DNA of 64,000 nucleotides from IMG/VR virus record IMGVR_UViG_3300021400_000095; one strand, 5' to 3'. Source of the stretch: a virus (taxonomy: Duplodnaviria > Caudoviricetes). The position numbers and the translations under genes are program-made. This document shows, piece after piece, positions 26,425-58,662 of this stretch. How positions within the stretch are numbered: the first letter of the stretch is position 1; each line of letters opens with the position of its first letter. The notes under the pieces are model-generated. The model worked only from the letters and a program-made list of their open reading frames with translations, was not told the DNA's origin and searched no databases.

Positions 26425-26496
26425 GCCACATTAGTACAAAGGTTAGTGCAACTGTCCCTAAAACAGATAATATGGGTTCAATTCCTATATGTGGCA
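26425..26496 (+). tRNA. tRNA with CUA anticodon (amber suppressor-type)
   Basis: Cloverleaf GCCACAT/ATGTGGC; ACTGT-CCCTAAA-ACAGA; T loop TTCAATT; C33 instead of U33. Confidence 0.75.
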
Positions 26497-26549
26497 CAAA
26501 GTATTGAAGATATATTTGATTGATTTTAAATCATAGCAAAATTTGAAAA

Positions 26550-28819: not shown

Positions 28820-28893
28820 GGCCCCTTAGACCAATTGGAAGAGTCAATAGATTCAAAACCTATTCAGTGTGAGTTCAAATCTCACAGGGGCTA
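28820..28893 (+). tRNA. tRNA-Leu(CAA), short variable loop
   Basis: GGCCCCT/AGGGGCT; loop TTCAAAA. Confidence 0.8.
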
Positions 28894-28950
28894 CAAAAAA
28901 AATAAAACTATTTGTTTTTATTTGAAAAATTTGTACTTTTGTAAAAAGTT

Positions 28951-29004: not shown

Positions 29005-29087
29005 GGGTAGGTATGTGAAGTGGTCAAACACACCTGACTGTAAATCAGGCAGCTCAGCTTTCGGGGGTTCGAATCCCTCCCTGCCCA
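29005..29087 (+). tRNA. tRNA-Tyr(GTA)
   Basis: CCTGA-CTGTAAA-TCAGG, long variable arm. Confidence 0.95.
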
Positions 29088-29575: not shown

Positions 29576-29653
29576 CTAATCAGTCATCTAGTGAACAAGG
29601 ATGCCTAGCAGTGATGCACATGGACACAGAGGTTTGAATCCTCTCTGATTAGC
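29576..29653 (+). ncRNA. tRNA-like RNA lacking a canonical anticodon loop
   Basis: CTAATCAG/CTGATTAG, CATC/GATG D stem, AGAGG-TTTGAAT-CCTCT; anticodon arm capped by GCA-GTGA-TGC. Confidence 0.6.
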
Positions 29654-29659
29654 AAATTA

Positions 29660-29729
29660 AGAAAACATACAGCAAAATTTATTTTGTAAAATTTGAATTT
29701 GGGTTTCAAACTGAAAAAAATGTTTTCTG
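29660..29729 (+). ncRNA. CAGCAA-scaffold RNA 1 (Pro UGG loop)
   Basis: AGAAAACA-TACAGCAA...TTTGAA-TTTGGGT-TTCAAA...TGTTTTCT-G. Confidence 0.75.
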
Positions 29730-29737
29730 TAAAATAT

Positions 29738-29889: not shown

Positions 29890-30414
29890 GCATCAGTAGC
29901 TCAGTTGGACAGAGCAACAGCCTTTAAGTGATTGATTTTCAATCAAATAGGAGTGTACTTAAGGAAACTTAAGATATAGAACTTTCCAAATTAGGTGAAG
30001 GCTAAGTACAGTGGGAACCTCACAGTGTAGGTTTTAAAAGGATGATAACCCACATGAGTATATGCTAATACCTAGCCAATGTCCCTGATATTCTAAAACA
30101 AAACATTCAAGTGAGAAGTGTGTGTCTTCTCAGAATATTAGACAGTGTGTAGAGACTAGATGGAAAGAACCTAAGTTGAAATATTAATGTGTACAGGTGG
30201 AAGCAGACCACATAAAAACTTAATGCTTTAAAAGACATTAATTACTTGCAAGATTTCAATATGGTTAAGGTATAGTCCAGACTACAAACATTAACTTGTT
30301 GGAGGAAGTAACTTGATGAAACCTTAAAAAATCTAATCCAATTAATAATGTGATAGTGAAAACTATTGTAGTAGGCTAAGCTGTGGGTCCTGGGTTCGAA
30401 TCCCAGCTGATGTA
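29890..30414 (+). tRNA. tRNA-Arg(TCT) interrupted by a group I intron
   Basis: Exons 29890-29924 and 30376-30414 join to ACAGC-CTTCTAA-GCTGT. Confidence 0.9.
29925..30375 (+). mobile_element. Group I self-splicing intron (IC3-like), no ORF
   Basis: Follows U34, ends in G; IGS TAGGAG 29948-53; P/Q/R/S-like AAATTAGGTGAA, GCTAATACCTAGC, GTAGAGACTAGATGG, AAGGTATAGTCC. Confidence 0.9.
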
Positions 30415-30509
30415 CAAAAAAAAATTAAAAAGTTCATTGACAAGTTTGGTAAATACAATAATCTATTTTGTAGATATGTGATATTGAAATAAAATAGTTG
30501 ACCTCAATG

Positions 30510-30632
30510 GCTATAATTGTTAAGTGGCTGAAAACAGTGGTCTTACCCTAAAGTACTGATATGGGGAAAACCACAATGTTAAATATAAAGTGCTGTATTT
30601 AACACACATTGGTTCAAATCCAATTTATAGCA
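30510..30632 (+). tRNA. tRNA-Leu(TAA)-like (alternatively Ser TGA) with a 21-nt insertion in the anticodon loop
   Basis: GCTATAA/TTATAGC-A; GTGGT-CTTA[insert]AAA-ACCAC; 11-bp variable arm. Confidence 0.6.
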
Positions 30633-30985: not shown

Positions 30986-31065
30986 AGAAAACATACAGCA
31001 AATTATAATTTAATGAATTTAATGCTATTGAAATTTGGGATTTTCAAACAAAAAAATGTTTTCTG
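30986..31065 (+). ncRNA. CAGCAA-scaffold RNA 2 (Pro UGG loop)
   Basis: AGAAAACA-TACAGCAA...TTGAAA-TTTGGGAT-TTTCAA...TGTTTTCT-G. Confidence 0.75.
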
Positions 31066-31071
31066 TTATTT

Positions 31072-31145
31072 ACCTCATTAGCCCAATTGGAAGAGGCAAT
31101 AGGTTTAGGGCCTATTAAGTGTGAGTTCAAATCTCACATGAGGTA
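31072..31145 (+). tRNA. tRNA-Leu(TAG), short variable loop
   Basis: ATAGG-TTTAGGG-CCTAT. Confidence 0.85.
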
Positions 31146-31407
31146 CTGATAATCAAATTGTTATCACAAAATTTGCTACTTTTTCATGGCCAATGAAAAT
31201 GAAGCAAAAATATTGATAAAATATTGAAAATTAAAAACTTCCTGGTCTAGAAATAGACAAAAATAGCATTAGAACAATGGGCAACCTAGGAATGTCACAT
31301 TGTACTTGCTGGGTGGATATAATTGAATGTGCACTTGATGAATAACACCCCATAGGCTTAATCCTTAATAAATTGGGACAGATGGATGGAAGTTTTTTTC
31401 TAAAAAT

Positions 31408-31481: not shown

Positions 31482-31692
31482 CCTAATCATTTAATAATTA
31501 ATTACTTAGGTGGTTCAAAAAGTCATTAAACTGCTGTGGGGGTTAGACTTCCCCCTTTGTGTGAAAAATATATTAATACTATTTTATATTAAACTCTGAA
31601 AAGACAAGCTGCAACTTGTTGAAGTAAGTGGGCTTTTATTATTTTAATGTTCTATGTTGCAGAATACTATATTAAACTAATAAAAGAAAAAA

Positions 31693-31759
31693 TTTCTTGT
31701 AAGTCTCAGTGGAAGAGCTACCCATGGGGTGGTCATTGGTTCGAATCCAATCAGGGAAC
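31693..31759 (+). ncRNA. tRNA-like RNA with shrunken anticodon loop
   Basis: TTTCTTG/CAGGGAA, D-like CTCAGTGGAAGAG, TACCC-ATG-GGGTG, ATTGG-TTCGAAT-CCAAT. Confidence 0.6.
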
Positions 31760-31765
31760 AAATTA

Positions 31766-31837
31766 AGGAAACATACAGCAAACAACATTTAAGCCTCAAA
31801 CTTTTAATTTGAAAATGCTAAATAATTTAGTTTCCTG
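31766..31837 (+). ncRNA. CAGCAA-scaffold RNA 3 (Lys UUU loop)
   Basis: AGGAAAC-ATACAGCAA...TCAAA-CTTTTAA-TTTGA...GTTTCCT-G (compensatory pair). Confidence 0.8.
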
Positions 31838-31919
31838 TAAATCTTAACCTTGGATGAAATCATTAGTATATTCCTATCATTGCTAACAGAAAGTAAAGAA
31901 GAGCCAAGGTTTTTTTAAT

Positions 31920-33541: not shown

Positions 33542-33674
33542 AGAAAACATGCAGCAATTTTAAATAAAATTAATTTGTCTGTAATACAAAAGATGGTGGG
33601 TTCAAATCCCCCATAAAGAAGTTTGTGGTCCTTCTTTATTAGTTTAATGGTGAGAACTAAAATTTTGTTTTCTG
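33542..33674 (+). ncRNA. CAGCAA-scaffold RNA 4: circularly permuted tRNA-Tyr-like domain
   Basis: Stem-TGCAGCAA, TTTGT-CTGTAAT-ACAAA, T arm, closed acceptor ATAAAGAAG/CTTCTTTAT, D arm, stem. Confidence 0.8.
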
Positions 33675-33691
33675 TAAAATACCTTATATTT

Positions 33692-33766
33692 GGGAGCTTA
33701 GCTCAGTTGGTTCAGAGCATTTGCCTTACAAGCAAAGGGTCGATGGTTCGAATCCATCAGTTCCCA
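33692..33766 (+). tRNA. tRNA-Val(TAC)
   Basis: TTTGC-CTTACAA-GCAAA. Confidence 0.95.
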
Positions 33767-33912
33767 CAAGAGATACTTGGAGAAGGTACAAGGTAGTTAA
33801 TGCATCAATGGCTACAATCATGGCCTCCATGATAAGAGATAGTTTATGAATTTGAAAACACCAAGTAACAACATGTAGAGGTTGCAAACTCTATATGGCT
33901 CTAATCTTAACA

Positions 33913-34025
33913 AGAAAAGTAACAGCAAAATTTGAAGTTTTTAGATGAGTCATAAGATGATATGTATAGTGAAAACTATATGGGGTCTGAATCCCCAACT
34001 TACCCCAAACTAAAATTCTTTTCTG
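33913..34025 (+). ncRNA. CAGCAA-scaffold RNA 5 (variable-arm and T-arm-like hairpins)
   Basis: AGAAAAG-TAACAGCAA...TATAG-TGAAAA-CTATA, GGGG-TCTGAAT-CCCC...CTTTTCT-G (compensatory pair). Confidence 0.7.
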
Positions 34026-34041
34026 TTTTAAAGTATAAAAT

Positions 34042-34119
34042 GGTGTGTTAGTTCAGCCTGGTTAGAATGCCACACTGTCACTGTGGAGGTCATGGGTTCG
34101 AGTCCCATACATACCGCCA
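34042..34119 (+). tRNA. tRNA-Asp(GTC)
   Basis: CCACA-CTGTCAC-TGTGG, encoded CCA. Confidence 0.95.
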
Positions 34120-34121
34120 AA

Positions 34122-34214
34122 AGAAAACTTACAGCAATTTATGTTGGATAAAATAAAAAATCTCTAAACTTTTTTATGAAATGGTTCAAATCCATTAAAA
34201 CTAATAGTTTTCTG
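34122..34214 (+). ncRNA. CAGCAA-scaffold RNA 6 (amber CUA loop + T arm)
   Basis: AGAAAACT-TACAGCAA...ATAAAAAA-tCTCTAAAc-TTTTTTAT, AATGG-TTCAAAT-CCATT...AGTTTTCT-G. Confidence 0.75.
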
Positions 34215-34228
34215 TTTATTTTTAAACT

Positions 34229-34301
34229 GGGGGATTAGCTCAGTTGGCAGAGCACAACATTTGCAATGTTGGGGTCAGGGGTTCAAATCCCCTATCCTCC
34301 A
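34229..34301 (+). tRNA. tRNA-Ala(TGC)
   Basis: CAACA-TTTGCAA-TGTTG, G3:U70. Confidence 0.95.
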
Positions 34302-34335
34302 CTAAATCAATTAATTACAATATTGTAATTATATT

Positions 34336-34410
34336 CATGCCATCGTATAATTGGTTAGTACCCTGCCCTTTCACGGCAGAAATGTTGGGGTTCGAGTCCC
34401 CCTGGCATGA
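34336..34410 (+). tRNA. tRNA-Glu(TTC), second copy
   Basis: CTGCC-CTTTCAC-GGCAG. Confidence 0.9.
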
Positions 34411-34425
34411 CAAATTTTTAGTACA

Positions 34426-35364
34426 ATGTCAAAATATGATATTTTATTTAGTGAAAAAGAGAAAGAGAACATAATTAAAGATTATGTTGAAAACTTATTA
34501 TCAATTAAAGAAATTTGTTTTAAATATAGTATAAAAAACAAACAATGGTTATGCAAAAAACTTTTAAAAGGAAAAACAAGAAGTTATAATGAATCTTGTA
34601 AAATTGCACATAAAAAATATCCAGAAAAATTCTTACATACAGAAGAAACAAAAAAATTAATGAGACAAAAAAGGCTTGATTTTATGAAAAATCATCCTGA
34701 AGAAACTGCTTGGAGAAAAAGAAACAAACCTTCATATCCTGAGCAATGTTTTATTGATTTTTTAAATGAATATGGATATTCTGACAAATATTTAATTGAA
34801 AGAGAAAAAAGTATATTTCCATATTTCATTGATTTTGCTTTTAATGATTTAAAGATTGCAGTTGAAATTGATGGTTCACAACATTATCTAGAGGAAGATA
34901 GAATTAAAAGGGATAAGAAGAAAGATGAACTATTAATTTCTTTAGGATGGTCAATATTAAGAATTTCAGCAATTTCTTTAGTCAATAAAGAATTTAAAGA
35001 AATTGATAAAAAGTTATCTGAAATCATAGTTTCTGTTAAAACTGTAGTACAACCATTACAAGTTGGTTTAATAAAGAAAATAAAGGGGAAGAAAAGACTA
35101 TCAAAAAATGGTAAATGGTATGTAAATTACAGAGAAAAATCTGAAAAATATTCAGATAACCAAACAATTAAGCAATATGAAAATTCATTAAGACAGAGAA
35201 AAGTTAAAGACAGACCATCAAAAGAAGAATTATTTGAAATGATGTCAACACAGACATTTAAATCAATTGCTGAAAAATATGGTGTTTCAACAAATGCTAT
35301 TCAAAAATGGTGTAAGGCATATGGGATACCACATAGGAAAAGAGATTACAATAATTTGGGATAG
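34426..35364 (+). CDS. DUF559/Vsr-like PD-(D/E)xK endonuclease, free-standing homing-endonuclease-like
   Basis: HTEETKK (NUMOD3-like), YFIDFA, AVEIDGSQH, RDKKKD..L...GW.ILR, C-terminal HTH. Confidence 0.85.
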   Translation: MSKYDILFSEKEKENIIKDYVENLLSIKEICFKYSIKNKQWLCKKLLKGKTRSYNESCKIAHKKYPEKFLHTEETKKLMRQKRLDFMKNHPEETAWRKRNKPSYPEQCFIDFLNEYGYSDKYLIEREKSIFPYFIDFAFNDLKIAVEIDGSQHYLEEDRIKRDKKKDELLISLGWSILRISAISLVNKEFKEIDKKLSEIIVSVKTVVQPLQVGLIKKIKGKKRLSKNGKWYVNYREKSEKYSDNQTIKQYENSLRQRKVKDRPSKEELFEMMSTQTFKSIAEKYGVSTNAIQKWCKAYGIPHRKRDYNNLG

Positions 35365-35437
35365 TGCTGGAACTGGTATACAGGCATGCCTAAGGAGCAT
35401 GTGGAGATTTCCATGTGGGTTCAAATCCCCTACCCCA
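35358..35437 (+). tRNA. tRNA-Leu(AAG), long variable arm, defective T stem (possible pseudogene)
   Basis: CATGC-CTAAGGA-GCATG; 3' T-stem strand ~2 nt short; overlaps the endonuclease stop. Confidence 0.6.
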
Positions 35438-35568
35438 TACAAATGAGATACAACATAACAATATAAGTTATTAGAAAAATAATAATATGGGTATATCACC
35501 CATAGTTTAAGTCCCCTCCAAAAAGGCAGAACAATTATTTTAATAATATAATAACAAAATTAATAATT

Positions 35569-35778
35569 ATGGGGTACTTTGTTTTAATTTTTGGTTTCTT
35601 ATTCACATTTATTGCAACAATAATCAAGGTGAATAAGACTTACATTCCAAAGACTGATTGTTCTACAGACATCAAGGATGCTAAGAGCAATTTGATTCAC
35701 ATGAGAACTTTCTTTATACTTGGACCAAGTTTAATTGTAATAAGTATTATACTTATTATTTTAGGTGTAGGATTATAA
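35569..35778 (+). CDS. Small membrane protein
   Basis: Two hydrophobic helices. Confidence 0.6.
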   Translation: MGYFVLIFGFLFTFIATIIKVNKTYIPKTDCSTDIKDAKSNLIHMRTFFILGPSLIVISIILIILGVGL

Positions 35779-35826
35779 AGGAAATGTAATATGAATGGGT
35801 ACAAGATGAACTTCTTGTACCATTTT

Positions 35827-35900
35827 ACCCCCTTAGCCCAATTGGAAGAGGCAATAGGTTAAGGACCTATTCAGTGTGAGTTCAAATCTCACAGGGGGTA
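35827..35900 (+). tRNA. tRNA-Leu(AAG), short variable loop
   Basis: ATAGG-TTAAGGA-CCTAT; body near-identical to 28820 and 31072. Confidence 0.85.
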
Positions 35901-35918
35901 CAAATAATATAAATATAT

Positions 35919-36036
35919 TGGGAGGTAGCTCAGTTGGTTAGAGCAGAGTATTTATGTTTTTAGTAACAGAAACTTACAGCAATATTTACAATGCATTTGG
36001 AGCCTCAGGTCATAGGTTCAAGTCCTATCCTCCCAA
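35919..36036 (+). ncRNA. tRNA body with the CAGCAA scaffold inserted in the anticodon arm (scaffold RNA 7)
   Basis: TGGGAGG/CCTCCCA, canonical D and T arms; internal GTTTTT-agtaac-AGAAAC-TTACAGCAA, then GC-ATTTGGA-GC. Confidence 0.75.
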
Positions 36037-36594: not shown

Positions 36595-36697
36595 AGAAAA
36601 CAGACAGCAAATTAAGTTTAAGATTGTAGGTTCAATTCCTTCTGTTTTTAAAGAAATTTAAAGGCAAAAATAGGTAATCCAAAAACAAAGTTTTCTG
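36595..36697 (+). ncRNA. CAGCAA-scaffold RNA 8 (T arm + closed acceptor, no anticodon)
   Basis: AGAAAAC-AGACAGCAA...AGG-TTCAATT-CCT, TGTTTTTAAA-GAAA-TTTAAAGGCA...GTTTTCT-G. Confidence 0.7.
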
Positions 36698-36709
36698 CTT
36701 GAAATACAA

Positions 36710-36865
36710 GCCGCCTTAGTATAGTGGTATTACAACTGACTTGCTACAGAGTGATTCACTGAGAAGAATTGCAAGGTATTAAAAGTGGTGAGCAGTACAG
36801 ATGATAGTTCAACTCTATCTACCTTGCCTAATCAGTAGATGTTGGTTCGATTCCGACAGGCGGCT
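36710..36865 (+). tRNA. tRNA-Thr(TGT)-like with an 85-nt anticodon insertion containing a nested tRNA-like module
   Basis: ACTGA-CTTG[36744-36828]TAA-TCAGT; insert has GCAAGGTA/TACCTTGC and GATAG-TTCAACT-CTATC. Confidence 0.7.
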
Positions 36866-36906: not shown

Positions 36907-37061
36907 GCCTGTATAGACTGAAATGGTGAAAGGGAGTAACAAACTGCTAAACAAATTTTAGTGAATGCATTAAGTTAAACTTTGAGTTAGTAAGTGTGAA
37001 AGGCTTAAGCAGCACCCTCTTTTGATAGAGGGGGATGTGGGTTCAATTCCCACTACAGGTA
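36907..37061 (+). ncRNA. tRNA-like gene with ~80-nt D-loop insertion and atypical anticodon loop
   Basis: GCCTGTA/TACAGGT; CCCTC-TTTTGATA-GAGGG; GTGGG-TTCAATT-CCCAC. Confidence 0.6.
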
Positions 37062-50101: not shown

Positions 50102-50266
50102 TTTTGTATATTTTTATTCATAGATAAATAGTTTTATTATCTAAAAAAGACTTAATTATTTGCTTTTCTTAGTTTTATTTTGTATTTTTGAATTGTCAAA
50201 ATATTATTATAAAATAATATGCTTTTGGCATGATTTTTGATAATGAATAAGGAAAATAATTTTTAT

Positions 50267-51859
50267 ATGAAAGAAATGTTTAAAATATCTGAAAATGCAA
50301 ATCCAAACTACCTTGCATTGATTACTAAAATTGGTGAAACCCATCCAATTGAAGGTGCTGATAGGCTTCTTAGAACCACTGTTAATGGTTTTGACATTGT
50401 TGTTGGTAATAACATGAAAGAAGGGGATATTGTTGTATATGTTCCTGTGGAATCTGCACTTTCTGAAAAGTTCCTTTCTACAAATAACTTGTATGAACTT
50501 GATGAATGGCAAAAAAATGCCAATGCATCTGAAATTGGTGTTCTTTATACCAAACTTAATGAACTTAAGTCTGAAGGTAAAAAGGATGAAGCAGATGCTG
50601 TTTATAAGGAAATTAAATCTAAGGTTGGATATTTTACCAATAAGAATAGGGTTAGAATTATTAACCTTAGAGGTTGCCCTTCTAATGGCTTTGTTGCTGG
50701 TGTTGATTCTCTTGTAAAATATAATTCTGAACTTGCTAATTCTAACTGGGAAGAACTTGTTGGAACTTATTTTAATTATGTAGGTGATGATGAGTTTTGT
50801 AAGAAATACATCCCTACTATCAAAGATAATAATGTTCCTCAAAATAATAGGAAAGGTACTAAAAAAGCACAAAAGAAACTGCAAAGGTTTGATAGACTTG
50901 TCCCTGGTCAGTATGAATTCCATTATGACACAATCAGACTTGATGCAACCAATATGCAAACTTTTATTCAACCAACTGATACTGTAACTATTACAGTAAA
51001 GGTACATGGTGCTCTTGCTGAAATGGCAAATGTTCTTATTAATAAGAAACTTTCTGTTTGGGAGAAAATTAAGAAATTCATTGGTTTTCATGTTGAAACC
51101 ACTGAATATGGAAATGTCTATTCTTCACATAAGGTAATCAAAAATAGATATATTAATAAGGGTGAAATTAATAATTTCTATGGTGCTGACATTTGGGGTT
51201 GTGTAAATAGGGACTTTGGTAAGTACCTTTCTGAAGGCATGACTGTTTATGGTGAGGTTGCTGGTTATGTTGAAGGCTCTGATAAAATGATTCAAAAAAA
51301 TCATGACTATGGTTGTAAGCCTGGTTGTTGGAAATTCATGCCTTATAGAATTACTGAAACTGACAAATATGGTAATTCAAGAGAATGGAACATTTCTGAA
51401 ATTTTTAAGTGGACCATTGATTTAATGGTTGCTCACCCTGAACTTGAAGATAAAATTCTTCCTATTAAGATACTTTATCATGGAAGAATTTGTGACTTGT
51501 ACCCTGATATTGAAATTGATGAAAAATGGTATAGTAATTTCCTTGAAAGACTTCATAATGATAAGAACTTCTATATGGAGTTAAAGGAACCCATGTGCCA
51601 TCTTTATGAGGAAGAAGCAAATGCAGCAAAGAAAGCACTTGATAAGGCAATTGCTGATGGTGAATCAAAGAAAATCATTGCTAAACTTGAAAAAGAGTTT
51701 AACAAATGGGAAGATATGAGAGCACCAAGGGAAGGTGTTGTTATTAGAATTGATAATGATGCCAAGGCAGAAGCTTTTAAAGTTAAGACTAATGCCCACT
51801 ACGGGGTTGAATGTGCACAACATGATGCTGGTGAAGTTGATATTGAGGAAATTTCATAA
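50267..51859 (+). CDS. RNA ligase (Rnl2/DRB0094-type) with N-terminal OB domain
   Basis: PIEGADRL, motif I TVKVHG, VYGE, REGVV, FKVK. Confidence 0.85.
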   Translation: MKEMFKISENANPNYLALITKIGETHPIEGADRLLRTTVNGFDIVVGNNMKEGDIVVYVPVESALSEKFLSTNNLYELDEWQKNANASEIGVLYTKLNELKSEGKKDEADAVYKEIKSKVGYFTNKNRVRIINLRGCPSNGFVAGVDSLVKYNSELANSNWEELVGTYFNYVGDDEFCKKYIPTIKDNNVPQNNRKGTKKAQKKLQRFDRLVPGQYEFHYDTIRLDATNMQTFIQPTDTVTITVKVHGALAEMANVLINKKLSVWEKIKKFIGFHVETTEYGNVYSSHKVIKNRYINKGEINNFYGADIWGCVNRDFGKYLSEGMTVYGEVAGYVEGSDKMIQKNHDYGCKPGCWKFMPYRITETDKYGNSREWNISEIFKWTIDLMVAHPELEDKILPIKILYHGRICDLYPDIEIDEKWYSNFLERLHNDKNFYMELKEPMCHLYEEEANAAKKALDKAIADGESKKIIAKLEKEFNKWEDMRAPREGVVIRIDNDAKAEAFKVKTNAHYGVECAQHDAGEVDIEEIS

Positions 51860-52065
51860 TGAAAAGGGTTGTTAAATATATTCCAGTTGACCCATATTAT
51901 TCTGAACAAACTCAGACCTATATTGGGTCAACTGCTTCTGAAGTTGATAATATTCAATATGAAACTGAAGAATTTATGGCAAGAAATCATACAAATTTGG
52001 GTATGATTTATAAAACTGAAACAATTTTTGACAATACAAATGAGTTTGGCATGAATTTTGATTAA
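51859..52065 (+). CDS. Small hypothetical protein
   Basis: 68 aa, overlaps the ligase stop. Confidence 0.65.
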   Translation: MKRVVKYIPVDPYYSEQTQTYIGSTASEVDNIQYETEEFMARNHTNLGMIYKTETIFDNTNEFGMNFD

Positions 52066-52119
52066 GTTAAAATAGAAAATTAACAAATACATTATTAACA
52101 ACAAAAAAAAATTAGAACA

Positions 52120-52974
52120 ATGGCAGATACAATGCTTTCTTTTAGTAGGAATCTTAGTTCCACTTTTCTTACTGAGGATGAACTTAAGAAGATTTGTCCT
52201 ATGGCTTTTAAGACTGAGCCTACCAACCCTGATGTTTCTGACAAGTACACTATGGCAACCACTATGGATGTTGTAAATGACATGGCACAGATTGGTTGGT
52301 TTCCAACTCAGGCAAAGCAGTGCAGGGGAAAGAAGAATTCAAAGGGGATTAGGAGTTATCATATGATTTCTTTTCAAAATCCTGATATTAAGATTTTGAA
52401 GGATGGTGAAATTGAAGCCTATCCAACCATTATTTTGCAGAACTCTCATGATGGTTTCAGTTCTTTTAAGTTTATGTGTGGCCTCTATCGGCTAGTATGT
52501 AGCAACGGATTAATTTTGGCTGATGCTGAATATGCAAGTGTTTCCATTAGACATATCAATTACAATTTTGAAGAACTCAGGCATGTTATTAATGACATTG
52601 TTGAAAAACTTCCTGAAAAGATTGCTGTAATTAATAAGATGAAGTCAACTGAACTTACTGAGGAACAGAAGACTGAGTTTGCAACCAATGTTATTAAGGT
52701 TAGAAAAGATATCCCCATTGAAAAGGAGATTGAGGTTAGTAATGACACTATTACTGACATTTTAACACCTATTAGGAAAGAAGATGAAGGTAACAATTTG
52801 TGGGCAATCTACAATGTTCTTCAGGAGAAGATTATCAATGGATATTTCTCTTATGCCAAGGATGAAAGAACCAAAGCAAGGAAGATGAGGAAGATTACCA
52901 GCCCTATTAAGGACATTAATATTAACTGTGAATTGTTTAAACTGGCCAGTAACTACATGAATGTTGCTGCATAA
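52120..52974 (+). CDS. DUF932/DUF945 family protein
   Basis: NSHDGFSSF, GLYRLVCSNGL, NNLWAIYNVLQE. Confidence 0.9.
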   Translation: MADTMLSFSRNLSSTFLTEDELKKICPMAFKTEPTNPDVSDKYTMATTMDVVNDMAQIGWFPTQAKQCRGKKNSKGIRSYHMISFQNPDIKILKDGEIEAYPTIILQNSHDGFSSFKFMCGLYRLVCSNGLILADAEYASVSIRHINYNFEELRHVINDIVEKLPEKIAVINKMKSTELTEEQKTEFATNVIKVRKDIPIEKEIEVSNDTITDILTPIRKEDEGNNLWAIYNVLQEKIINGYFSYAKDERTKARKMRKITSPIKDININCELFKLASNYMNVAA

Positions 52975-52986
52975 ATATAAATTAAT

Positions 52987-53271
52987 ATGAGTGATTTGCT
53001 AAATAAGAAATTTTTTAAGCACAAGAAGTTGAATACATTTTATCTCAAAAGGTTCAAGACTGAATCAAAGAGTAATTTTCAGGTTTGGAAGAAAAATGGT
53101 AAATATTATGTTGCAATAGGTGTAATATCTGTTGGTGACAGTCTTTATGCTGAAGAAACCATTGATTATGGGACTAACATTATTGAAGCAAGGAAGTATT
53201 GTGATGAACTTAGGCAAAATTATATCTTAAATGAAGTAAAAAGATATAAGAATTTAAAGAAAGTATATTAA
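52987..53271 (+). CDS. Hypothetical protein
   Basis: 94 aa ORF. Confidence 0.65.
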   Translation: MSDLLNKKFFKHKKLNTFYLKRFKTESKSNFQVWKKNGKYYVAIGVISVGDSLYAEETIDYGTNIIEARKYCDELRQNYILNEVKRYKNLKKVY

Positions 53272-54533
53272 TGATAGAAAAGTTATTTAAAATAAACATA
53301 TGTGAAAAACATCCTGAATATTGTTCCATTGAATATTTATGGGACAATATTTGGTCTATACCTGAGTTTGCAATTTTAAAGACATGTGAACAAAATCCAA
53401 AATGGCATGGTGAAGGAAATGTTATGAACCACACTGCACTTGTCATAAAGCATGCACTTCAAATTGTGAACAATGATATGACCTATGATGGTATTCATAT
53501 TAATGGATATTTGGATGCTGAAAGCAATCATAAAAGAAATGAATTTGAAACTGTTTGGCTTGACAAGAAGCATTTCAATGATACATTAATTTTGCTTACA
53601 GCAGCATTGTTTCATGATATTGGCAAAGGTGTAACAACCAGGCTTGGAAAAGATGGAAATTATCATTCATATAATCATGAATTTGAGGGTGAAAAACTTA
53701 CCAGATTACTTTTATGGGATGAAAACATTCATTTTAGGGAAGCAGTTTGTTCATTGGTTAAATACCATATGATGCCATTAAGTCTTTTTAATAGTAAAGA
53801 TTATTTGGAAAAAATTGTACAAATTTCACATAATGTTCCATCTTGGGAATTATTATTGAAATTAAAGTCATGTGATTTGGAAGGTTCCTTACAGGAGGAT
53901 AATCTTTTAAAGGAAAGGGACACCTTATATTTATCTGAATTGGTAGATATCACAACAAATATTAATTTCAAAGGTTTTCCATCAAAGAGACATTATGGTA
54001 TCAAGTATTATGAAAGAAACACCAAAAAACCATTGGATATTTATATTTTGATTGGGCTTTCAGGTGCTGGTAAAAATACTTTTATCAACAATATATTTGA
54101 AGATGATGTTGTTGCCATTAATGGCAAAGTTATAAAGAAACTTGACAAAGATAATACTACCATTATTTCAAGGGATGATATTAGGATTAAACTTGGATAT
54201 TGTTCTGAGAATGAAAAAATTGTTGGCACTACTGAACAGGAAAATAAGGTATCAGAAGTTTTCAATGAAGAAGTTCTATCTGCTGCAAAAGAAGGAAAAA
54301 CAATTATCATTAATAATATTAATTTAAAGAAGGAATATAGGTCACAGATAATAAACATGTTTTCAAACTATTGTTTGACAATAAATTATGTTTATATACA
54401 GGCAGACAAACTACAAAAGAATTTTGATAGAAGAGAAGGTCAAATGAACTCAGATTCAATTATTAGACAAATAAAGAATTTTGATTGGCCAGATTTCTAT
54501 GAATATGATAAATTTTACATTCTCACAAATTAA
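53271..54533 (+). CDS. HD-domain phosphohydrolase fused to P-loop (polynucleotide kinase-like) domain
   Basis: Q..WHGEGNV..HT, FHDIGK; GLSGAGKNT, ISRDDIR. Confidence 0.88.
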   Translation: MIEKLFKINICEKHPEYCSIEYLWDNIWSIPEFAILKTCEQNPKWHGEGNVMNHTALVIKHALQIVNNDMTYDGIHINGYLDAESNHKRNEFETVWLDKKHFNDTLILLTAALFHDIGKGVTTRLGKDGNYHSYNHEFEGEKLTRLLLWDENIHFREAVCSLVKYHMMPLSLFNSKDYLEKIVQISHNVPSWELLLKLKSCDLEGSLQEDNLLKERDTLYLSELVDITTNINFKGFPSKRHYGIKYYERNTKKPLDIYILIGLSGAGKNTFINNIFEDDVVAINGKVIKKLDKDNTTIISRDDIRIKLGYCSENEKIVGTTEQENKVSEVFNEEVLSAAKEGKTIIINNINLKKEYRSQIINMFSNYCLTINYVYIQADKLQKNFDRREGQMNSDSIIRQIKNFDWPDFYEYDKFYILTN

Positions 54534-54599
54534 TTTGTGAGAATTTTTTTTTTATTTTTGGCATATTTTTTGTATATTTGTAAAAAGGTACAATATAAT

Positions 54600-55580
54600 A
54601 TGGATGAAATTAGTTTAATACAAAAAATAGGTGGAAATACAACACCAAATGACATACTTGAAATTGAAAATAAAGTCATTAAATTAGTTGAGGAAAGGGG
54701 TGTTGCACCTTTTCCTTACAAAAACATTATTAGTTCTATTGTAGAATATATTAAAAAAGAAACAAATTTAAATAAACCAACAGCAACAGTTGGGGAAAAG
54801 AAGCTTTACATACCATATGAGATTACCAGTAAAATTGATTTTATTGATAATTTAAATATTGAGGTTAATGTGGAATATACTACTGATGAGAAAAAACTTA
54901 GCAATTCAGGTGGTGGTATTACACATTTTTCCACAAGACCTAGAATGGTTAATGGAAAACTTGACAATATTACAATTGTAATACATTGTTTATCAATGTA
55001 TGGGTATTTGTTAGAAAGAACATTGTATAATTCATTATATCATGAAATACATCATGCATATGAAGCATATTTAGATTTAAAGAAAAATGGATATTATAAA
55101 AGATGGCTCAACCAAGTCAAGAAATCTAATATTAATGTTACTGATATTTTTAATAATAATGAAGACAATAATTTGTTTAATATAATATTATATAGGTTAT
55201 TTTCTGAAACTGAATTTAATGCACTTATTTCAGGCTTATATGGTGATTTAAAAGGATTTCATTCAATTAGGCAAAACTTTCAAAAAGATATTAAAAATAC
55301 ACAAGCATATTATATTTACTATTTAATCAGTCAAAATTATAAAGCACTTTATGCAAAAATAAATGACAGTAATATTAGTAAAGTTAAAAATTTATTGGTT
55401 GACCATGGGATTATATTAAATCCATATAATAATTCAACAGCAAGTTATGTTAAAGAACTTTCAAGAAAAACAAATTATTTGTTAAAGGATTTAATTAAAG
55501 GTATTGGAAGGGCTGCTTCATTATATTATGATAATCAAGAGGAAAAATTTCCAGATAAAAATATTAAAATAGAAAATTAA
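54600..55580 (+). CDS. HExxH metallopeptidase-like protein
   Basis: LYHEIHHAYE, ETEFNA. Confidence 0.65.
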   Translation: MDEISLIQKIGGNTTPNDILEIENKVIKLVEERGVAPFPYKNIISSIVEYIKKETNLNKPTATVGEKKLYIPYEITSKIDFIDNLNIEVNVEYTTDEKKLSNSGGGITHFSTRPRMVNGKLDNITIVIHCLSMYGYLLERTLYNSLYHEIHHAYEAYLDLKKNGYYKRWLNQVKKSNINVTDIFNNNEDNNLFNIILYRLFSETEFNALISGLYGDLKGFHSIRQNFQKDIKNTQAYYIYYLISQNYKALYAKINDSNISKVKNLLVDHGIILNPYNNSTASYVKELSRKTNYLLKDLIKGIGRAASLYYDNQEEKFPDKNIKIEN

Positions 55581-55582
55581 AT

Positions 55583-56014
55583 ATGGATAAAAATTGGCAA
55601 TATTATGGTGTTTTCTTTTCTGATAAAGTAAAGGAACTTTTATATAGGAAAGCAAGTCAATATCTTGACCTTCCTTTTATGTTTGAAAACTATTATTTTG
55701 ATATTGATACATGGAAGAAATATTGTGACCATGTAACAATTGTATATAATGATGGAAACCCTGAAAAACAAAAAATTGCAGAAGGACTTGACCTATTTGT
55801 AGGTAATGAGGCTTCTATGATGGTAACACATTTGGGTGTATCTGATAGAGCAGTTGCTTTTAAAGTTGATTATAAAACAACAAATAAGATTTCACATGTA
55901 ACTGTTGCAGTTGCTCCTGGTGCAAAACCTGTTGAAAGCAATTATATTACTGATTGGGAAGAAATTGATGTTTTTTATATTAGTGGCAAAATTAATAAAG
56001 TTTTAAAGAAATGA
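55583..56014 (+). CDS. 2H phosphoesterase (tRNA-ligase CPDase-like)
   Basis: Two HxT motifs (HVTI, HVTV), KPVESN. Confidence 0.85.
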   Translation: MDKNWQYYGVFFSDKVKELLYRKASQYLDLPFMFENYYFDIDTWKKYCDHVTIVYNDGNPEKQKIAEGLDLFVGNEASMMVTHLGVSDRAVAFKVDYKTTNKISHVTVAVAPGAKPVESNYITDWEEIDVFYISGKINKVLKK

Positions 56015-57273
56015 CAATAAATATCTATAAAGAAATCCTTAAAGAACTAAAGAACATAATTACAGGTACTGAATGGGAAAATCATATTTTTTCTGTTGGT
56101 GGTTGTAATAGGGATTATATTATGGGAAATGAAATTAAAGACATTGATTTTGTTTGTGATTTGCCAAATGGTGGTATTAATTTTGCAAAATGGCTCAAAG
56201 AAAATGAATATGTCAATAATAGCATTGTTGTTTATGAAAATTTTGGAACTGCAATGTTTCATTTAAATAAATTTCCTGATATTGAACTTGAAGTTGTTCA
56301 TACAAGAAAAGAATGTTATCATGATGCAAAGACAAGAAATCCTGAAACTTCTTTTGGCACACTTCTTGAAGATTGGGAAAGAAGGGACTTTACAATTAAT
56401 GCAATATATTACAACATTAGTAAAGGTGAATTTTTAGATTTTAAAGATAGAGGTAAAACTGACATTGAAAAGAAAATAATTAGAACCTGTAGTTTAAACC
56501 CTGATATAGTTTTTACTGAAGACCCTTTAAGAATTCTAAGAATGGTTAGATTTGCTACAAAACTGGGGTTTGAAATTGATAATAATACTTTTAGTAGTGC
56601 TAAAAAGAATACAAACAGGTTATCAATTATTAGTAAAGAAAGGATTCAGGATGAACTTAATAAAATGCTTACTTCTGGTAATGCAGATTATGCAATGAAA
56701 CTTATATATGATTTAGGTGCTGATGAATATATTTTTAATTCAAAAATTGATTGCCCTGAGCAAATAATTAAATCTCTGAAAAACTATAAGTTACTGCCAA
56801 ACTGTGATGTAAAAAATCTTGAAGCCAATTTGACTATTATATATAGTTTCTATCCTGATGTAGAAGATAAAATGAAATATCTCAAATATTCAAATGAAAT
56901 AATTTATTTGGTTATGTTTTATTTTGATTTATTTGATGATATTAATTTATCAAGAATGACACCATCAGGAATTAGAAAAATACAATATAACAGCAAAACA
57001 TTTAATAATTTAATAAATGCCTGTAATATTGCTACTGCTGTCCTTAACACACCAAATGTTAATAAAGTATTGGAAAGCACTAATAAAATGATGAAAGCTG
57101 GCATAGCAATGTTTAATTATAAACTTCCTGTTGATGGAAATGATGTTATGAGAGTGCTTCATATTAAACCATCACCAGTTGTAAAAACAAAATTGGATTT
57201 CCTGTTAAATCAGGCTTTTATTAATCCATTCCTTAGTAAATCTGATTGCGAATTATTGTTAGAACTAAATTAA
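56011..57273 (+). CDS. cca: tRNA nucleotidyltransferase (CCA-adding enzyme, class II)
   Basis: VGGCNRD, DIDF, RRDFTINA, EDPLRILR, SKERI. Confidence 0.9.
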   Translation: MTINIYKEILKELKNIITGTEWENHIFSVGGCNRDYIMGNEIKDIDFVCDLPNGGINFAKWLKENEYVNNSIVVYENFGTAMFHLNKFPDIELEVVHTRKECYHDAKTRNPETSFGTLLEDWERRDFTINAIYYNISKGEFLDFKDRGKTDIEKKIIRTCSLNPDIVFTEDPLRILRMVRFATKLGFEIDNNTFSSAKKNTNRLSIISKERIQDELNKMLTSGNADYAMKLIYDLGADEYIFNSKIDCPEQIIKSLKNYKLLPNCDVKNLEANLTIIYSFYPDVEDKMKYLKYSNEIIYLVMFYFDLFDDINLSRMTPSGIRKIQYNSKTFNNLINACNIATAVLNTPNVNKVLESTNKMMKAGIAMFNYKLPVDGNDVMRVLHIKPSPVVKTKLDFLLNQAFINPFLSKSDCELLLELN

Positions 57274-57441
57274 TAATATTATGACTAGTAATACTAATGA
57301 AACTTTATTAAAAAATACCTATCAAGTTGGAAACTCTGTTTTTAACTCCTATGAAGAAGCATTATGCTATTTAATGAAAGAAAAAAATTATACAACTAAT
57401 GCAACAGAAATAATAATAAATACTGAATACTATTATTGATT

Positions 57442-58662
57442 ATGACTAAATTAACAATTGAATATCTTAGAGAACATAACATGATTGCCTATGAATATAT
57501 TAGAGGGTCACATGCTTATGGCACTAACATTGAAACCTCTGATAAAGATATTGGAGGTGTTTACATTTGTCCAAAGGAAACTCTTGTTGGACTTAGATGC
57601 AATTATGTGGAACAGGTTGCTGATGAAAAAAATGATACTGTTTTCTATGAACTTGGTAGATGGGTTGAACTCCTTATGAAATCAAATCCAACTGCACTTG
57701 AAAGTTTGTTTATACCTGAAGATTGCATCATTGGTAAAATTCATCCAGCAGTACAACATATTCTTGACCATAGAGACCTTTTTGTTACTAAAGAATGCCT
57801 AAATCCTCTATTGGGTTATTCATATTCACAAATTGAAAAAGCAAAGGGTCTTAATAAGAAAATCAATATTCCTGAAGATTTCCAAAGAAAAGATATTCTT
57901 GATTTTTGCTATACTTTTAAGAATCAAGGAAGTCAACCAATTAAAGATTTTCTTAAAGAAAATTATCTTGACCAAAAATATTGTGGTCTTGTAAACATTC
58001 CTAACATGAAAGATGTTTATGGTGTTTACTATGATTGGGCTTCATATTTCAAATTTGAGAACATTGATTGGTATGATGCAAGTTTTCAAAGTGGTGGAAT
58101 TAAATACCCATTTTCAAAGTTCATCAAAGATTTTGAGCATGCATATATTAGAGATAGAATTAATGATAAGGTGTTTTTCCATTATTCTGGAATTGTTCAT
58201 CCTGATGAATTATCAAAGTCAAATGTTGTTAGATTGTCATCCATTCCAAAGGGTGAAAAGCCTATTTGTTTTATGACTTATAATAAAGATGGTTATGAAA
58301 GTCATTGTAAAAAATATAAAGAATGGGTAGATTGGAAAAAACATAGGAATCCTGTAAGGTATGAAAATAATAAAGGACATAACTATGATGCCAAAAATCT
58401 ATGCCATACAATTAGATTAATGACAATGGGTGTTGAACTTGCTGAAGGAAAAGGTTTCAATGTTAGAAGAAGTGGTGAAGATGTAAAGCATCTTCTTGCA
58501 ATTAGAAATCATGAAATGTCATATGATGAAATCATGGAAGAAGCAACCAATTTGAAAAAAATTTTTGATGAGAAAGTAAAAACAACAACTCTTCCTGATA
58601 AAATTGATATTTCTTTAGTTAATAAACTACTTATTGAAAGTAGAAGTATTGCTTATGAATGA
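57442..58662 (+). CDS. Pol-beta superfamily nucleotidyltransferase
   Basis: GSHAYG...SDKD, NPTALE, YDAKNLCHTIRL. Confidence 0.85.
   Translation: MTKLTIEYLREHNMIAYEYIRGSHAYGTNIETSDKDIGGVYICPKETLVGLRCNYVEQVADEKNDTVFYELGRWVELLMKSNPTALESLFIPEDCIIGKIHPAVQHILDHRDLFVTKECLNPLLGYSYSQIEKAKGLNKKINIPEDFQRKDILDFCYTFKNQGSQPIKDFLKENYLDQKYCGLVNIPNMKDVYGVYYDWASYFKFENIDWYDASFQSGGIKYPFSKFIKDFEHAYIRDRINDKVFFHYSGIVHPDELSKSNVVRLSSIPKGEKPICFMTYNKDGYESHCKKYKEWVDWKKHRNPVRYENNKGHNYDAKNLCHTIRLMTMGVELAEGKGFNVRRSGEDVKHLLAIRNHEMSYDEIMEEATNLKKIFDEKVKTTTLPDKIDISLVNKLLIESRSIAYE

What the first reader, a model, noticed from the sequence alone, without database searches (positions are those of the whole stretch)
33542..36036. 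Two scaffold RNAs are circular permutations of one another
Seen: 33542-33674 reads scaffold 5' strand, CAGCAA, Tyr anticodon hairpin, T arm (GGG-TTCAAAT-CCC), acceptor closed by a loop (ATAAAGAAG/CTTCTTTAT), D arm (TAGTTTAATGGTGAGAAC), scaffold 3' strand. 35919-36036 has the same cyclic order opened at the acceptor: acceptor 5', D arm, scaffold 3' strand, loop, scaffold 5' strand, TTACAGCAA, Pro/Gln-like loop, T arm, acceptor 3'. Known: T arm-closed acceptor-D arm is the YrlA arrangement. Inference: the 3D fold, not the linear order, is under selection. The 35919 form could be processed by RNase P, receive CCA and perhaps be charged while carrying a protein-binding insert, suggesting an intermediate between tRNA and a Y-like RNA.
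Basis: partly seen in the sequence, partly recalled or inferred. Interest (0 to 1): 0.85.

Follow-up and report, generated by a model that had tools for sequence, protein, structure and literature searches.

The report
tRNA-mimic RNAs in two permuted layouts
A 353-kb rumen phage carries two small RNA genes with the same parts (a whole tRNA shape plus a short conserved "handle") written in two rotated orders; both layouts recur in many phages that encode a ring protein shaped like the RNA-binding autoantigen Ro60, so they are most likely an undescribed kind of Y-RNA-like partner of that protein, and just possibly a new way of splicing tRNAs.

Summary
Confirmed, with corrections. 33542-33675 and 35919-36036 hold the same parts in the same cyclic order: a tRNA body plus a handle (7-bp helix + CAGCAA). 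Removing 35949-35992 in silico gives a tRNA-Gln(UUG); rejoining the halves of 33542 gives a tRNA-Tyr(GUA). Both layouts are widespread (62 linear, 82 permuted non-redundant RNAs), open the tRNA at about the same place (after nt 28/29), and keep compensatory pairs in the handle and the 15:48 tertiary pair, so the fold rather than the order is conserved. DUF2828, which folds like Ro60, occurs in 43/49 handle-carrying phage records against 3/33 controls; I could not verify it in this genome. About half the family lacks an anticodon arm and identity elements have drifted, which favours a retained handle on a tRNA mimic (0.62) over an intron/permuted tRNA gene (0.15). The two RNAs are only 44% alike, so neither is shown to derive from the other. 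YrlA has the same topology but a different motif: works like a Y RNA, not a YrlA member. Nothing is shown experimentally. The scan has already reported this family, both layouts included, in over 60 other genomes.

The parts
33542..33675 (+). Permuted (YrlA-order) handle RNA: handle 5' strand, CAGCAA, Tyr anticodon hairpin, T arm, loop-closed acceptor, D arm, handle 3' strand, GU tail
33542..33557 (+). Handle 5' strand (33542-33548) and CAGCAA motif (33552-33557) of the permuted RNA
33574..33612 (+). Self-contained Tyr (GUA) anticodon hairpin, short variable loop and T arm (one mismatch or one bulged U)
   Evidence: Rfam tRNA partial match 20.8 bits
33613..33639 (+). Acceptor stem, 9 bp (7 bp + N73:N-1 + 1), closed by a 9-nt loop; U1:A72, A73
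33640..33673 (+). D arm (33640-33657), A/U linker and handle 3' strand (33667-33673)
35919..36036 (+). Linear handle RNA: complete tRNA-Gln(UUG)-shaped body with the handle inserted between nt 29 and 30
   Evidence: Rfam tRNA 49.8 bits; ARAGORN calls tRNA-Gln after in-silico excision
35949..35992 (+). 44-nt insert: handle 3' strand 35956-35961, loop, handle 5' strand 35968-35973, CAGCAA 35977-35982, linker
35993..36006 (+). Rest of the anticodon arm: nt 30-43, loop AUUUGGA (A32, anticodon UUG)
29660..29730 (+). Handle copy enclosing a Pro (UGG) anticodon-like hairpin only
30986..31066 (+). Handle copy enclosing a Pro (UGG) anticodon-like hairpin only
31766..31839 (+). Handle copy (compensatory G-C pair) enclosing a Lys (UUU) anticodon-like hairpin
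33913..34026 (+). Handle copy (compensatory change) with several hairpins, one T-arm-like
34122..34215 (+). Handle copy with a T arm; weak match to the Dictyostelium Class I RNA model (20.3 bits, cut-off 41.5)
36595..36698 (+). Handle copy with a T-arm-like hairpin
50237..58662 (+). Context, possibly functionally linked: RNA end-healing and sealing genes (PHA02142-type RNA ligase 50237, HD + kinase 53271, cyclic phosphodiesterase 55583, CCA/poly(A)-polymerase family 56011, RlaP nucleotidyltransferase 57436)
   Evidence: Pfam; a link to the handle RNAs is inference

Best explanation
Both genes encode tRNA-shaped non-coding RNAs that keep their handle. The handle (7-bp helix + unpaired CAGCAA, with G(U) after the 3' strand) is the binding site for a phage-encoded DUF2828 protein, a Ro60-like ring, as the Y stem is for Ro60. 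It projects from the 5' strand of the anticodon stem, so the L-shaped body can still form. Because acceptor end and handle tip can each be either an open end or a loop, the same molecule can be written in linear order (35919: open acceptor, looped handle) or permuted order (33542: looped acceptor, open handle). Tandem duplication followed by loss of the outer halves converts one into the other. RNase P cleavage of the acceptor loop would make the permuted RNA a two-piece copy of the linear one. Most likely role: the particle presents tRNA surfaces (elbow, acceptor, often an anticodon loop) to tRNA-directed enzymes during infection, as bait for host tRNA nucleases or as a tether for RNA repair or decay enzymes. 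Shown: anatomy, covariation, wide distribution, co-occurrence with DUF2828, Ro60-like fold of related DUF2828. Inferred: expression, binding, processing, role.
For: Handle helix 7/7 paired in 35/62 linear RNAs (swap null 2.1, max 8) and 72/82 permuted (null 6.2; set pre-filtered for 6 bp), with several pair types per position; RNAalifold recovers it with compensatory changes in both layouts. 15:48 pair covaries. DUF2828 in 43/49 handle records (25/27 near-complete) vs 3/33 tRNA-carrying controls, two of which have handles; within size-matched loci 61/137 vs 3/115, and 16/21 loci from prokaryote genome assemblies. A DUF2828 model from a related phage has only Ro60/Rsr structures as its eight hits at E<0.001; profile search also ranks Ro60 first (E 0.02). 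Against a tRNA product: a full 5-bp arm with U33 forms in only 30/62 and 39/82; six of eight copies here lack most of the tRNA body; purine at 32 in 15/69 vs 15/620; CCA 7/62 vs 326/620; discriminator match 0.47/0.44 vs 0.88. 3' junction lies 7-20 nt from the motif with no fixed sequence. Tandem pairs able to fold either way exist (L535), and layouts are intermixed on a tree. Precedent: M. smegmatis YrlA is cut by RNase P and receives CCA (PMC4201824).
Against: The model is modest (pLDDT 66, TM 0.38-0.45). The motif is not the Ro60 motif GNCGAA. The handle in 35919 is thermodynamically marginal. The exact 5-bp arm recovered on excision and the above-chance match of acceptor to anticodon (mean rank 6.8/6.3 vs 10.7/10.1 shuffled, 2.9 intact) are also what a spliced tRNA would show. 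Displayed anticodons are neither more nor less often duplicated by intact tRNAs than chance (16/30 vs 15.0).
Confidence: 0.62

Rival explanations
1. The handle is a splice mark. 35919 is a tRNA-Gln gene with a 44-nt intron at 29/30; 33542 is a circularly permuted tRNA-Tyr gene whose ends are cut and ligated into a circle that RNase P and a 3' nuclease then open, as in Cyanidioschyzon merolae but without a bulge-helix-bulge motif. DUF2828 would guide a nuclease and the phage ligase.
For: Excision or rejoining gives ARAGORN-recognised tRNAs for both. The split falls after nt 28 or 29 in 29/30 linear and 34/39 permuted RNAs with a full arm; pairs across the split are partner-specific (42/62 and 52/82 vs about 9). 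Permuted acceptors are 7-9 bp in 75/95. The window has ligase, kinase, phosphodiesterase and CCA-type genes and another intron-split tRNA (36710). Permuted tRNA genes are established in algae and an archaeon (PMC3978253).
Against: About half the members could give no anticodon arm; handle-only copies have no exons; A32, missing CCA and drifted discriminators; 33542 lacks the bacterial Tyr determinant G1:C72 (PMC9976931) and the long variable arm of this phage's intact tRNA-Tyr at 29005; intact Gln(UUG) and Tyr(GUA) genes are present; variable 3' junction; no endonuclease identified; Ro60 folds are not known nucleases (own knowledge).
Confidence: 0.15
2. The linear RNA is matured by RNase P, given CCA and aminoacylated while keeping the handle, and serves as a protein-tethered charged adaptor.
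For: 35919 has U1:A72, G2:C71, G3:C70, G10:C25 and U35, positions named as glutamine determinants (PMC9976931 for 1-72, 3-70, 10-25, U35); the phage's intact tRNA-Gln also has U1:A72 and A73; Gln ranks 3rd of 19 by acceptor.
Against: Its nearest relative (L351, 69%, support 100/91) shows a Pro loop and a different acceptor, so the Gln reading may be drift; family-wide identity match is weak; a 44-nt arm in the anticodon stem may block the synthetase (inference).
Confidence: 0.1
3. The handle binds some other protein, or acts mainly as a processing or stability element of the tRNA polycistron; DUF2828 merely travels in the same RNA-repair region.
For: Binding is untested; 6/49 handle records show no DUF2828, two of them near-complete; Dictyostelium Class I RNAs with the same motif are reported to bind an RRM protein (PMC7919456).
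Against: Strong and close linkage; handle-like motifs lie just upstream of several DUF2828 start codons; Ro60-like fold.
Confidence: 0.09
4. Decaying tRNA pseudogenes carrying a mobile repeat, with no function.
For: 33542 is AU-rich with a T-stem defect; identity elements drift.
Against: Compensatory changes in all helices and in the 15:48 pair in both layouts; handle sequences diverge while pairing is kept; fixed insertion point.
Confidence: 0.04

Closest known systems
YrlA bacterial/phage Y RNA with Rsr/Ro60 (Rfam RF02553; Chen et al. 2014, PMC4201824; Thermus phage phiLo Ro60-Yrl, PMC12135203)
   Same: [quoted passage not shown]
   Different: Motif CAGCAA after a covarying 7-bp helix, not GNCGAA; partner is DUF2828 (PF11443), 10-15% identical to Ro60 structures; half the members keep an anticodon loop; an unpermuted linear layout exists, which is not described for YrlA; no YrlA model hit on 33542, 18 bits (cut-off 69) elsewhere.
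Circularly permuted and non-canonically intron-split tRNA genes of algae and archaea (Soma 2014, PMC3978253)
   Same: 3' half before 5' half, joined through the acceptor; complete tRNA recoverable on paper; gene ends paired; tandem-duplication origin proposed.
   Different: No bulge-helix-bulge motif; bacterial host; junction in the 5' anticodon stem; many members cannot yield a tRNA; no processing shown.
Dictyostelium Class I RNAs (Rfam RF01414; Kjellin et al. 2021, PMC7919456)
   Same: Short terminal helix with compensatory changes, adjacent unpaired motif ending CAGCAA, 3' CUG tail, variable interior.
   Different: Class I RNAs are 42-65 nt, reported only from dictyostelids, without tRNA modules; best score here 20.3 bits against cut-off 41.5.
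'Enigmatic' tRNA introns of Lak megaphages (Devoto et al. 2019, PMC6784885)
   Same: Inserts in tRNA genes of large gut phages with no known removal mechanism.
   Different: The passages read describe introns in tRNA-Tyr and tRNA-Thr and do not mention a handle motif or permutation.

Membership tests
YrlA / bacterial Y RNA | Order T arm - closed acceptor-like stem - D arm inside a terminal stem | tested here: met
   33542, (35919 has it only cyclically)
YrlA / bacterial Y RNA | GNCGAA(N)G Ro60-binding motif near the 5' end | tested here: not met
   Motif is CAGCAA in all copies; definition from PMC4201824
YrlA / bacterial Y RNA | Match to Rfam RF02553 at the gathering score | tested here: not met
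   No hit on 33542 at E<=10; 18 bits vs 69 across neighbouring genes
YrlA / bacterial Y RNA | Encoded within about 4 kb of a TROVE-domain Ro60 gene | tested here: not met
   No DUF2828 in the window and no long unexplained ORF of that kind near the array; a direct TROVE search was not possible. Relatives have DUF2828 close by in 61/137 loci
YrlA / bacterial Y RNA | Partner protein with the Ro60 ring (HEAT repeats + vWA) fold | tested here: inconclusive
   Met for DUF2828 of related phages (pLDDT 66); this genome's copy not retrieved
YrlA / bacterial Y RNA | Physical binding to the ring protein; tRNA-type modifications | not testable with these tools
   Needs experiment
Permuted or intron-split tRNA gene | Halves reconstitute a complete cloverleaf | tested here: met
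   for both RNAs; about half of the family
Permuted or intron-split tRNA gene | Bulge-helix-bulge motif, or group I/II intron core, at the junction | tested here: not met
   44-nt insert, variable 7-20 nt linker, no fixed 3' junction; no intron family hit
Permuted or intron-split tRNA gene | Identity elements agree with the anticodon | tested here: inconclusive
   Above chance but far below intact tRNAs; compatible for 35919 (Gln), not for 33542 (Tyr)
Permuted or intron-split tRNA gene | Spliced or circular product exists | not testable with these tools
Dictyostelium Class I RNA | Short terminal stem plus 11-nt motif ending CAA, 3' CUG | tested here: met
   (34123 copy)
Dictyostelium Class I RNA | 42-65 nt length, Rfam RF01414 score, dictyostelid promoter element | tested here: not met
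   70-135 nt; 20.3 and 12.7 bits vs 41.5; phage genome

The most novel reading that the evidence does not exclude
The handle is a protein-read splice mark: phages, and some gut bacteria, encode tRNAs in intron-split and circularly permuted form and mature them with a Ro60-like guide protein plus their own healing and ligase enzymes. That would be a tRNA splicing route without bulge-helix-bulge or ribozyme, and the first permuted tRNA genes in the bacterial world.
Probability: 0.15. Interest if true: 0.92.

Novelty: new variant of a known kind. Interest (0 to 1): 0.68.

Why it matters
It gives a testable RNA ligand for DUF2828, a widespread family with no functional paper in the library searched, and extends the Ro60/Y RNA design to a different ring protein and motif. 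The linear layout is the missing step between a tRNA and the permuted YrlA-type arrangement: a whole tRNA with a handle in its anticodon stem, which one tandem duplication turns inside out. Natural circular permutation pairs are known for few RNA classes (PMC10085705). It also links phage tRNA arrays to defence by tRNA cleavage, and offers a lead for the unexplained Class I RNAs of social amoebae. For annotation, such genes are mis-called as tRNAs with odd introns or missed.

Tried and rejected
Whole-genome search and download: none held. This genome's DUF2828: two homologue searches showed no hit on a 352,732-bp contig; I did not walk along the contig because a tool states a limit on how much of a metagenome record a session may hold. 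Close relatives with an orthologous array: none, so no insert-free allele could be sought. First pattern search was mostly chance coding matches (5 of 112 real). Rejected: the long inner helix as part of the scaffold; YrlA membership; direct descent of one RNA from the other; five Woesearchaeota/Pacearchaeota matches (ordinary 37/38 introns in tRNA-Asn); the linear parses of L241 and L271 (artefacts, left in the counts, 2 of 62). Redundancy test was uninformative (16/30 vs 15.0). Anticodons UUU/UGU/GUU, the PARIS AriB targets (PMC12409363), are 23/69 vs 112/620 in intact tRNAs (p 0.004), but the set was chosen after looking, GUU alone is not enriched and sequences are not independent: a lead only. 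Promoter scan gave nothing specific. Literature searches found no description of this RNA class; the library is incomplete.
Full report
Setting. The window comes from a 352,732-bp rumen metagenome contig, an AT-rich jumbo phage by gene content. It holds a tRNA array with about 30 tRNA-like genes and a tmRNA at 28.8-37.9 kb. No whole genome or reads were available.

Observation. Both elements are real. 33542-33675 runs handle 5' strand, CAGCAA, Tyr hairpin, T arm, loop-closed 9-bp acceptor, D arm, handle 3' strand; it folds better than all 200 shuffles. 35919-36036 scores 49.8 bits as a tRNA with an insert. Deleting 35949-35992 in silico leaves a fully paired tRNA-Gln(UUG); joining 33633-33658 to 33574-33620 gives a tRNA-Tyr(GUA) with one T-stem defect. 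Six more handles lie in the array around lone anticodon hairpins or T arms; seven perfect 7-bp handles in all, against 0.013 by chance. In single-sequence folding the handle of 35919 is marginal (0.14-0.18) and the Tyr hairpin of 33542 is out-competed, so those parts rest on comparison.

Both layouts are a large family. After removing near-duplicates, 62 linear and 82 permuted RNAs remain. The 7 nt ending 3 nt before CAGCAA pair 7/7 with a partner strand in 35/62 (swap null 2.1) and 72/82 (null 6.2; this set was pre-filtered), with many pair types; a G, usually GU, follows the 3' strand in both, as hairpin loop in one layout and tail in the other. RNAalifold finds the same helices with compensatory changes. 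The tRNA is opened after nt 28 or 29 in 63 of 69 members with a full anticodon arm, and pairs 27-28:42-43 span the break (42/62, 52/82; null about 9). The 15:48 tertiary pair covaries (59/62, 74/82; null 32, 41). This is good evidence that the fold, not the order, is conserved. Caveats: the patterns demand canonical D and T motifs, sequences are related, and two parses are artefacts.

How the layouts interconvert. Tandem linear copies occur. In L535 the 3' half of one copy can pair with the next copy's 5' half in both acceptor and handle (7/7 either way), so the inner segment is a ready-made permuted gene. This is the duplication-and-loss model proposed for permuted tRNA genes (PMC3978253). 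On a tree of order-normalised sequences the layouts are intermixed: 26 changes against 40.5 shuffled, 7 forced by supported branches, one of them an artefact; the tree is poorly resolved and module exchange could mimic flips. The two RNAs here are 44% alike and lie apart; 35919 groups with a Pro-loop linear RNA. They are permutations in design, not shown to be parent and daughter. 33542 is atypical: break at 26/27 with a self-contained hairpin.

Partner. Earlier scan notes pointed to DUF2828; I tested it. It is present in 43/49 handle records against 3/33 controls chosen by an ordinary tRNA pattern, two of those three having handles. Controls are smaller records, but size-matched loci give 61/137 against 3/115. 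A model of one DUF2828 (pLDDT 66) matches only Ro60/Rsr structures at E<0.001, and a profile search ranks Ro60 first. For this genome the gene is reported about 38.5 kb before the window by an unchecked note; I could not confirm it.

Mimic or spliced tRNA. For splicing: exact reconstitution, a near-fixed break point, mostly 7-9-bp permuted acceptors, and RNA healing, ligase and CCA-type genes in the window. Against: only about half of the members have an anticodon arm, and in many the handle simply replaces it as in YrlA; handle-only copies exist; position 32 is a purine in 15/69 against 15/620; CCA is encoded in 7/62 against 326/620; discriminators match in under half; the 3' junction is variable. 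Acceptor identity still tracks the anticodon above chance (rank 6.8 and 6.3, shuffled 10-11, intact 2.9), as expected from tRNA ancestry or from a chargeable subset. 35919 keeps glutamine determinants; 33542 lacks G1:C72 (PMC9976931) and the long variable arm of the phage's own tRNA-Tyr. I put the retained-handle mimic at 0.62, splicing at 0.15, a charged tethered adaptor at 0.10.

Mechanism. Inferred: the array is transcribed as polycistrons; RNase P and 3' trimming release the RNAs; DUF2828 binds the handle; the tRNA body engages tRNA-directed enzymes. RNase P could nick the acceptor loop of 33542, as in M. smegmatis YrlA (PMC4201824), making it a two-piece equivalent of 35919. Bait for host tRNA nucleases or a tether for repair or decay enzymes are the likeliest roles; phage Ro60-Yrl complexes bind host PNPase (PMC12135203). 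The excess of AriB-target anticodons is post hoc and only a lead.

Comparison and verdict. It works like Ro60/YrlA but fails YrlA membership on motif, model score and gene proximity. The handle matches the design of Dictyostelium Class I RNAs below threshold (PMC7919456). I found no paper on it. The scan has reported this family in over 60 genomes, including both layouts; that is not independent evidence. New variant of a known kind; interest 0.68.

Noticed in passing
window 29890-30415: tRNA-Arg(UCU)-like gene interrupted in the anticodon loop by about 430 nt with group I intron-like core motifs (read by eye); missed by ARAGORN and by Rfam at gathering score.
   Followed up: no
window 31689-31760 and 29576-29653: tRNA-like genes with acceptor, D-like and T arms but a stunted or odd anticodon arm, each directly upstream of a handle copy that displays an anticodon hairpin (31766, 29660). 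L359:589-652 is a similar 64-nt minimal tRNA next to a linear handle RNA.
   Followed up: no
window 30510-30632: Oversized tRNA-like gene (Rfam tRNA 44.2 bits) with an extended anticodon arm and a long variable arm; no handle motif.
   Followed up: no
window 36710-36865 and 36907-37061: Two further interrupted tRNAs without the handle (Thr with an insert in the anticodon; one with an expanded D region). If they are spliced, this phage needs an unknown tRNA endonuclease, which bears on the splicing rival.
   Followed up: no
window 50237-58662: Cluster of RNA end-healing and sealing genes: RNA ligase with PHA02142 domain, HD + kinase, cyclic phosphodiesterase, CCA/poly(A) polymerase family, RlaP nucleotidyltransferase.
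   Followed up: partly
window 26425-26497: tRNA with CUA anticodon (amber suppressor type) although the window's genes read as long frames under the standard code.
   Followed up: no
window 34426-35364: DUF559-type endonuclease gene inside the tRNA array, its end overlapping the tRNA-Leu at 35357; probably a homing endonuclease.
   Followed up: partly
L535:6506-6770: Two tandem linear handle RNAs in a Lachnospiraceae assembly whose inner segment can fold as a complete permuted RNA: a candidate permutation intermediate, just upstream of DUF2828.
   Followed up: partly
L522, L523, L533, L541, L542: Woesearchaeota/Pacearchaeota tRNA-Asn genes with short 37/38 introns ending in ACAGCA, which pairs with the anticodon arm; a coincidental match to the handle motif.
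   Followed up: partly
L500:1380-1452, L352, L355, L357, L494 (upstream of DUF2828): A handle-like ACAGCAA element lies within 70 nt of the DUF2828 start codon in several phages, suggesting feedback control of its translation.
   Followed up: no
window 28820-28894, 31072-31146, 35827-35901: Three paralogous Leu-anticodon tRNAs with short variable loops.
   Followed up: no
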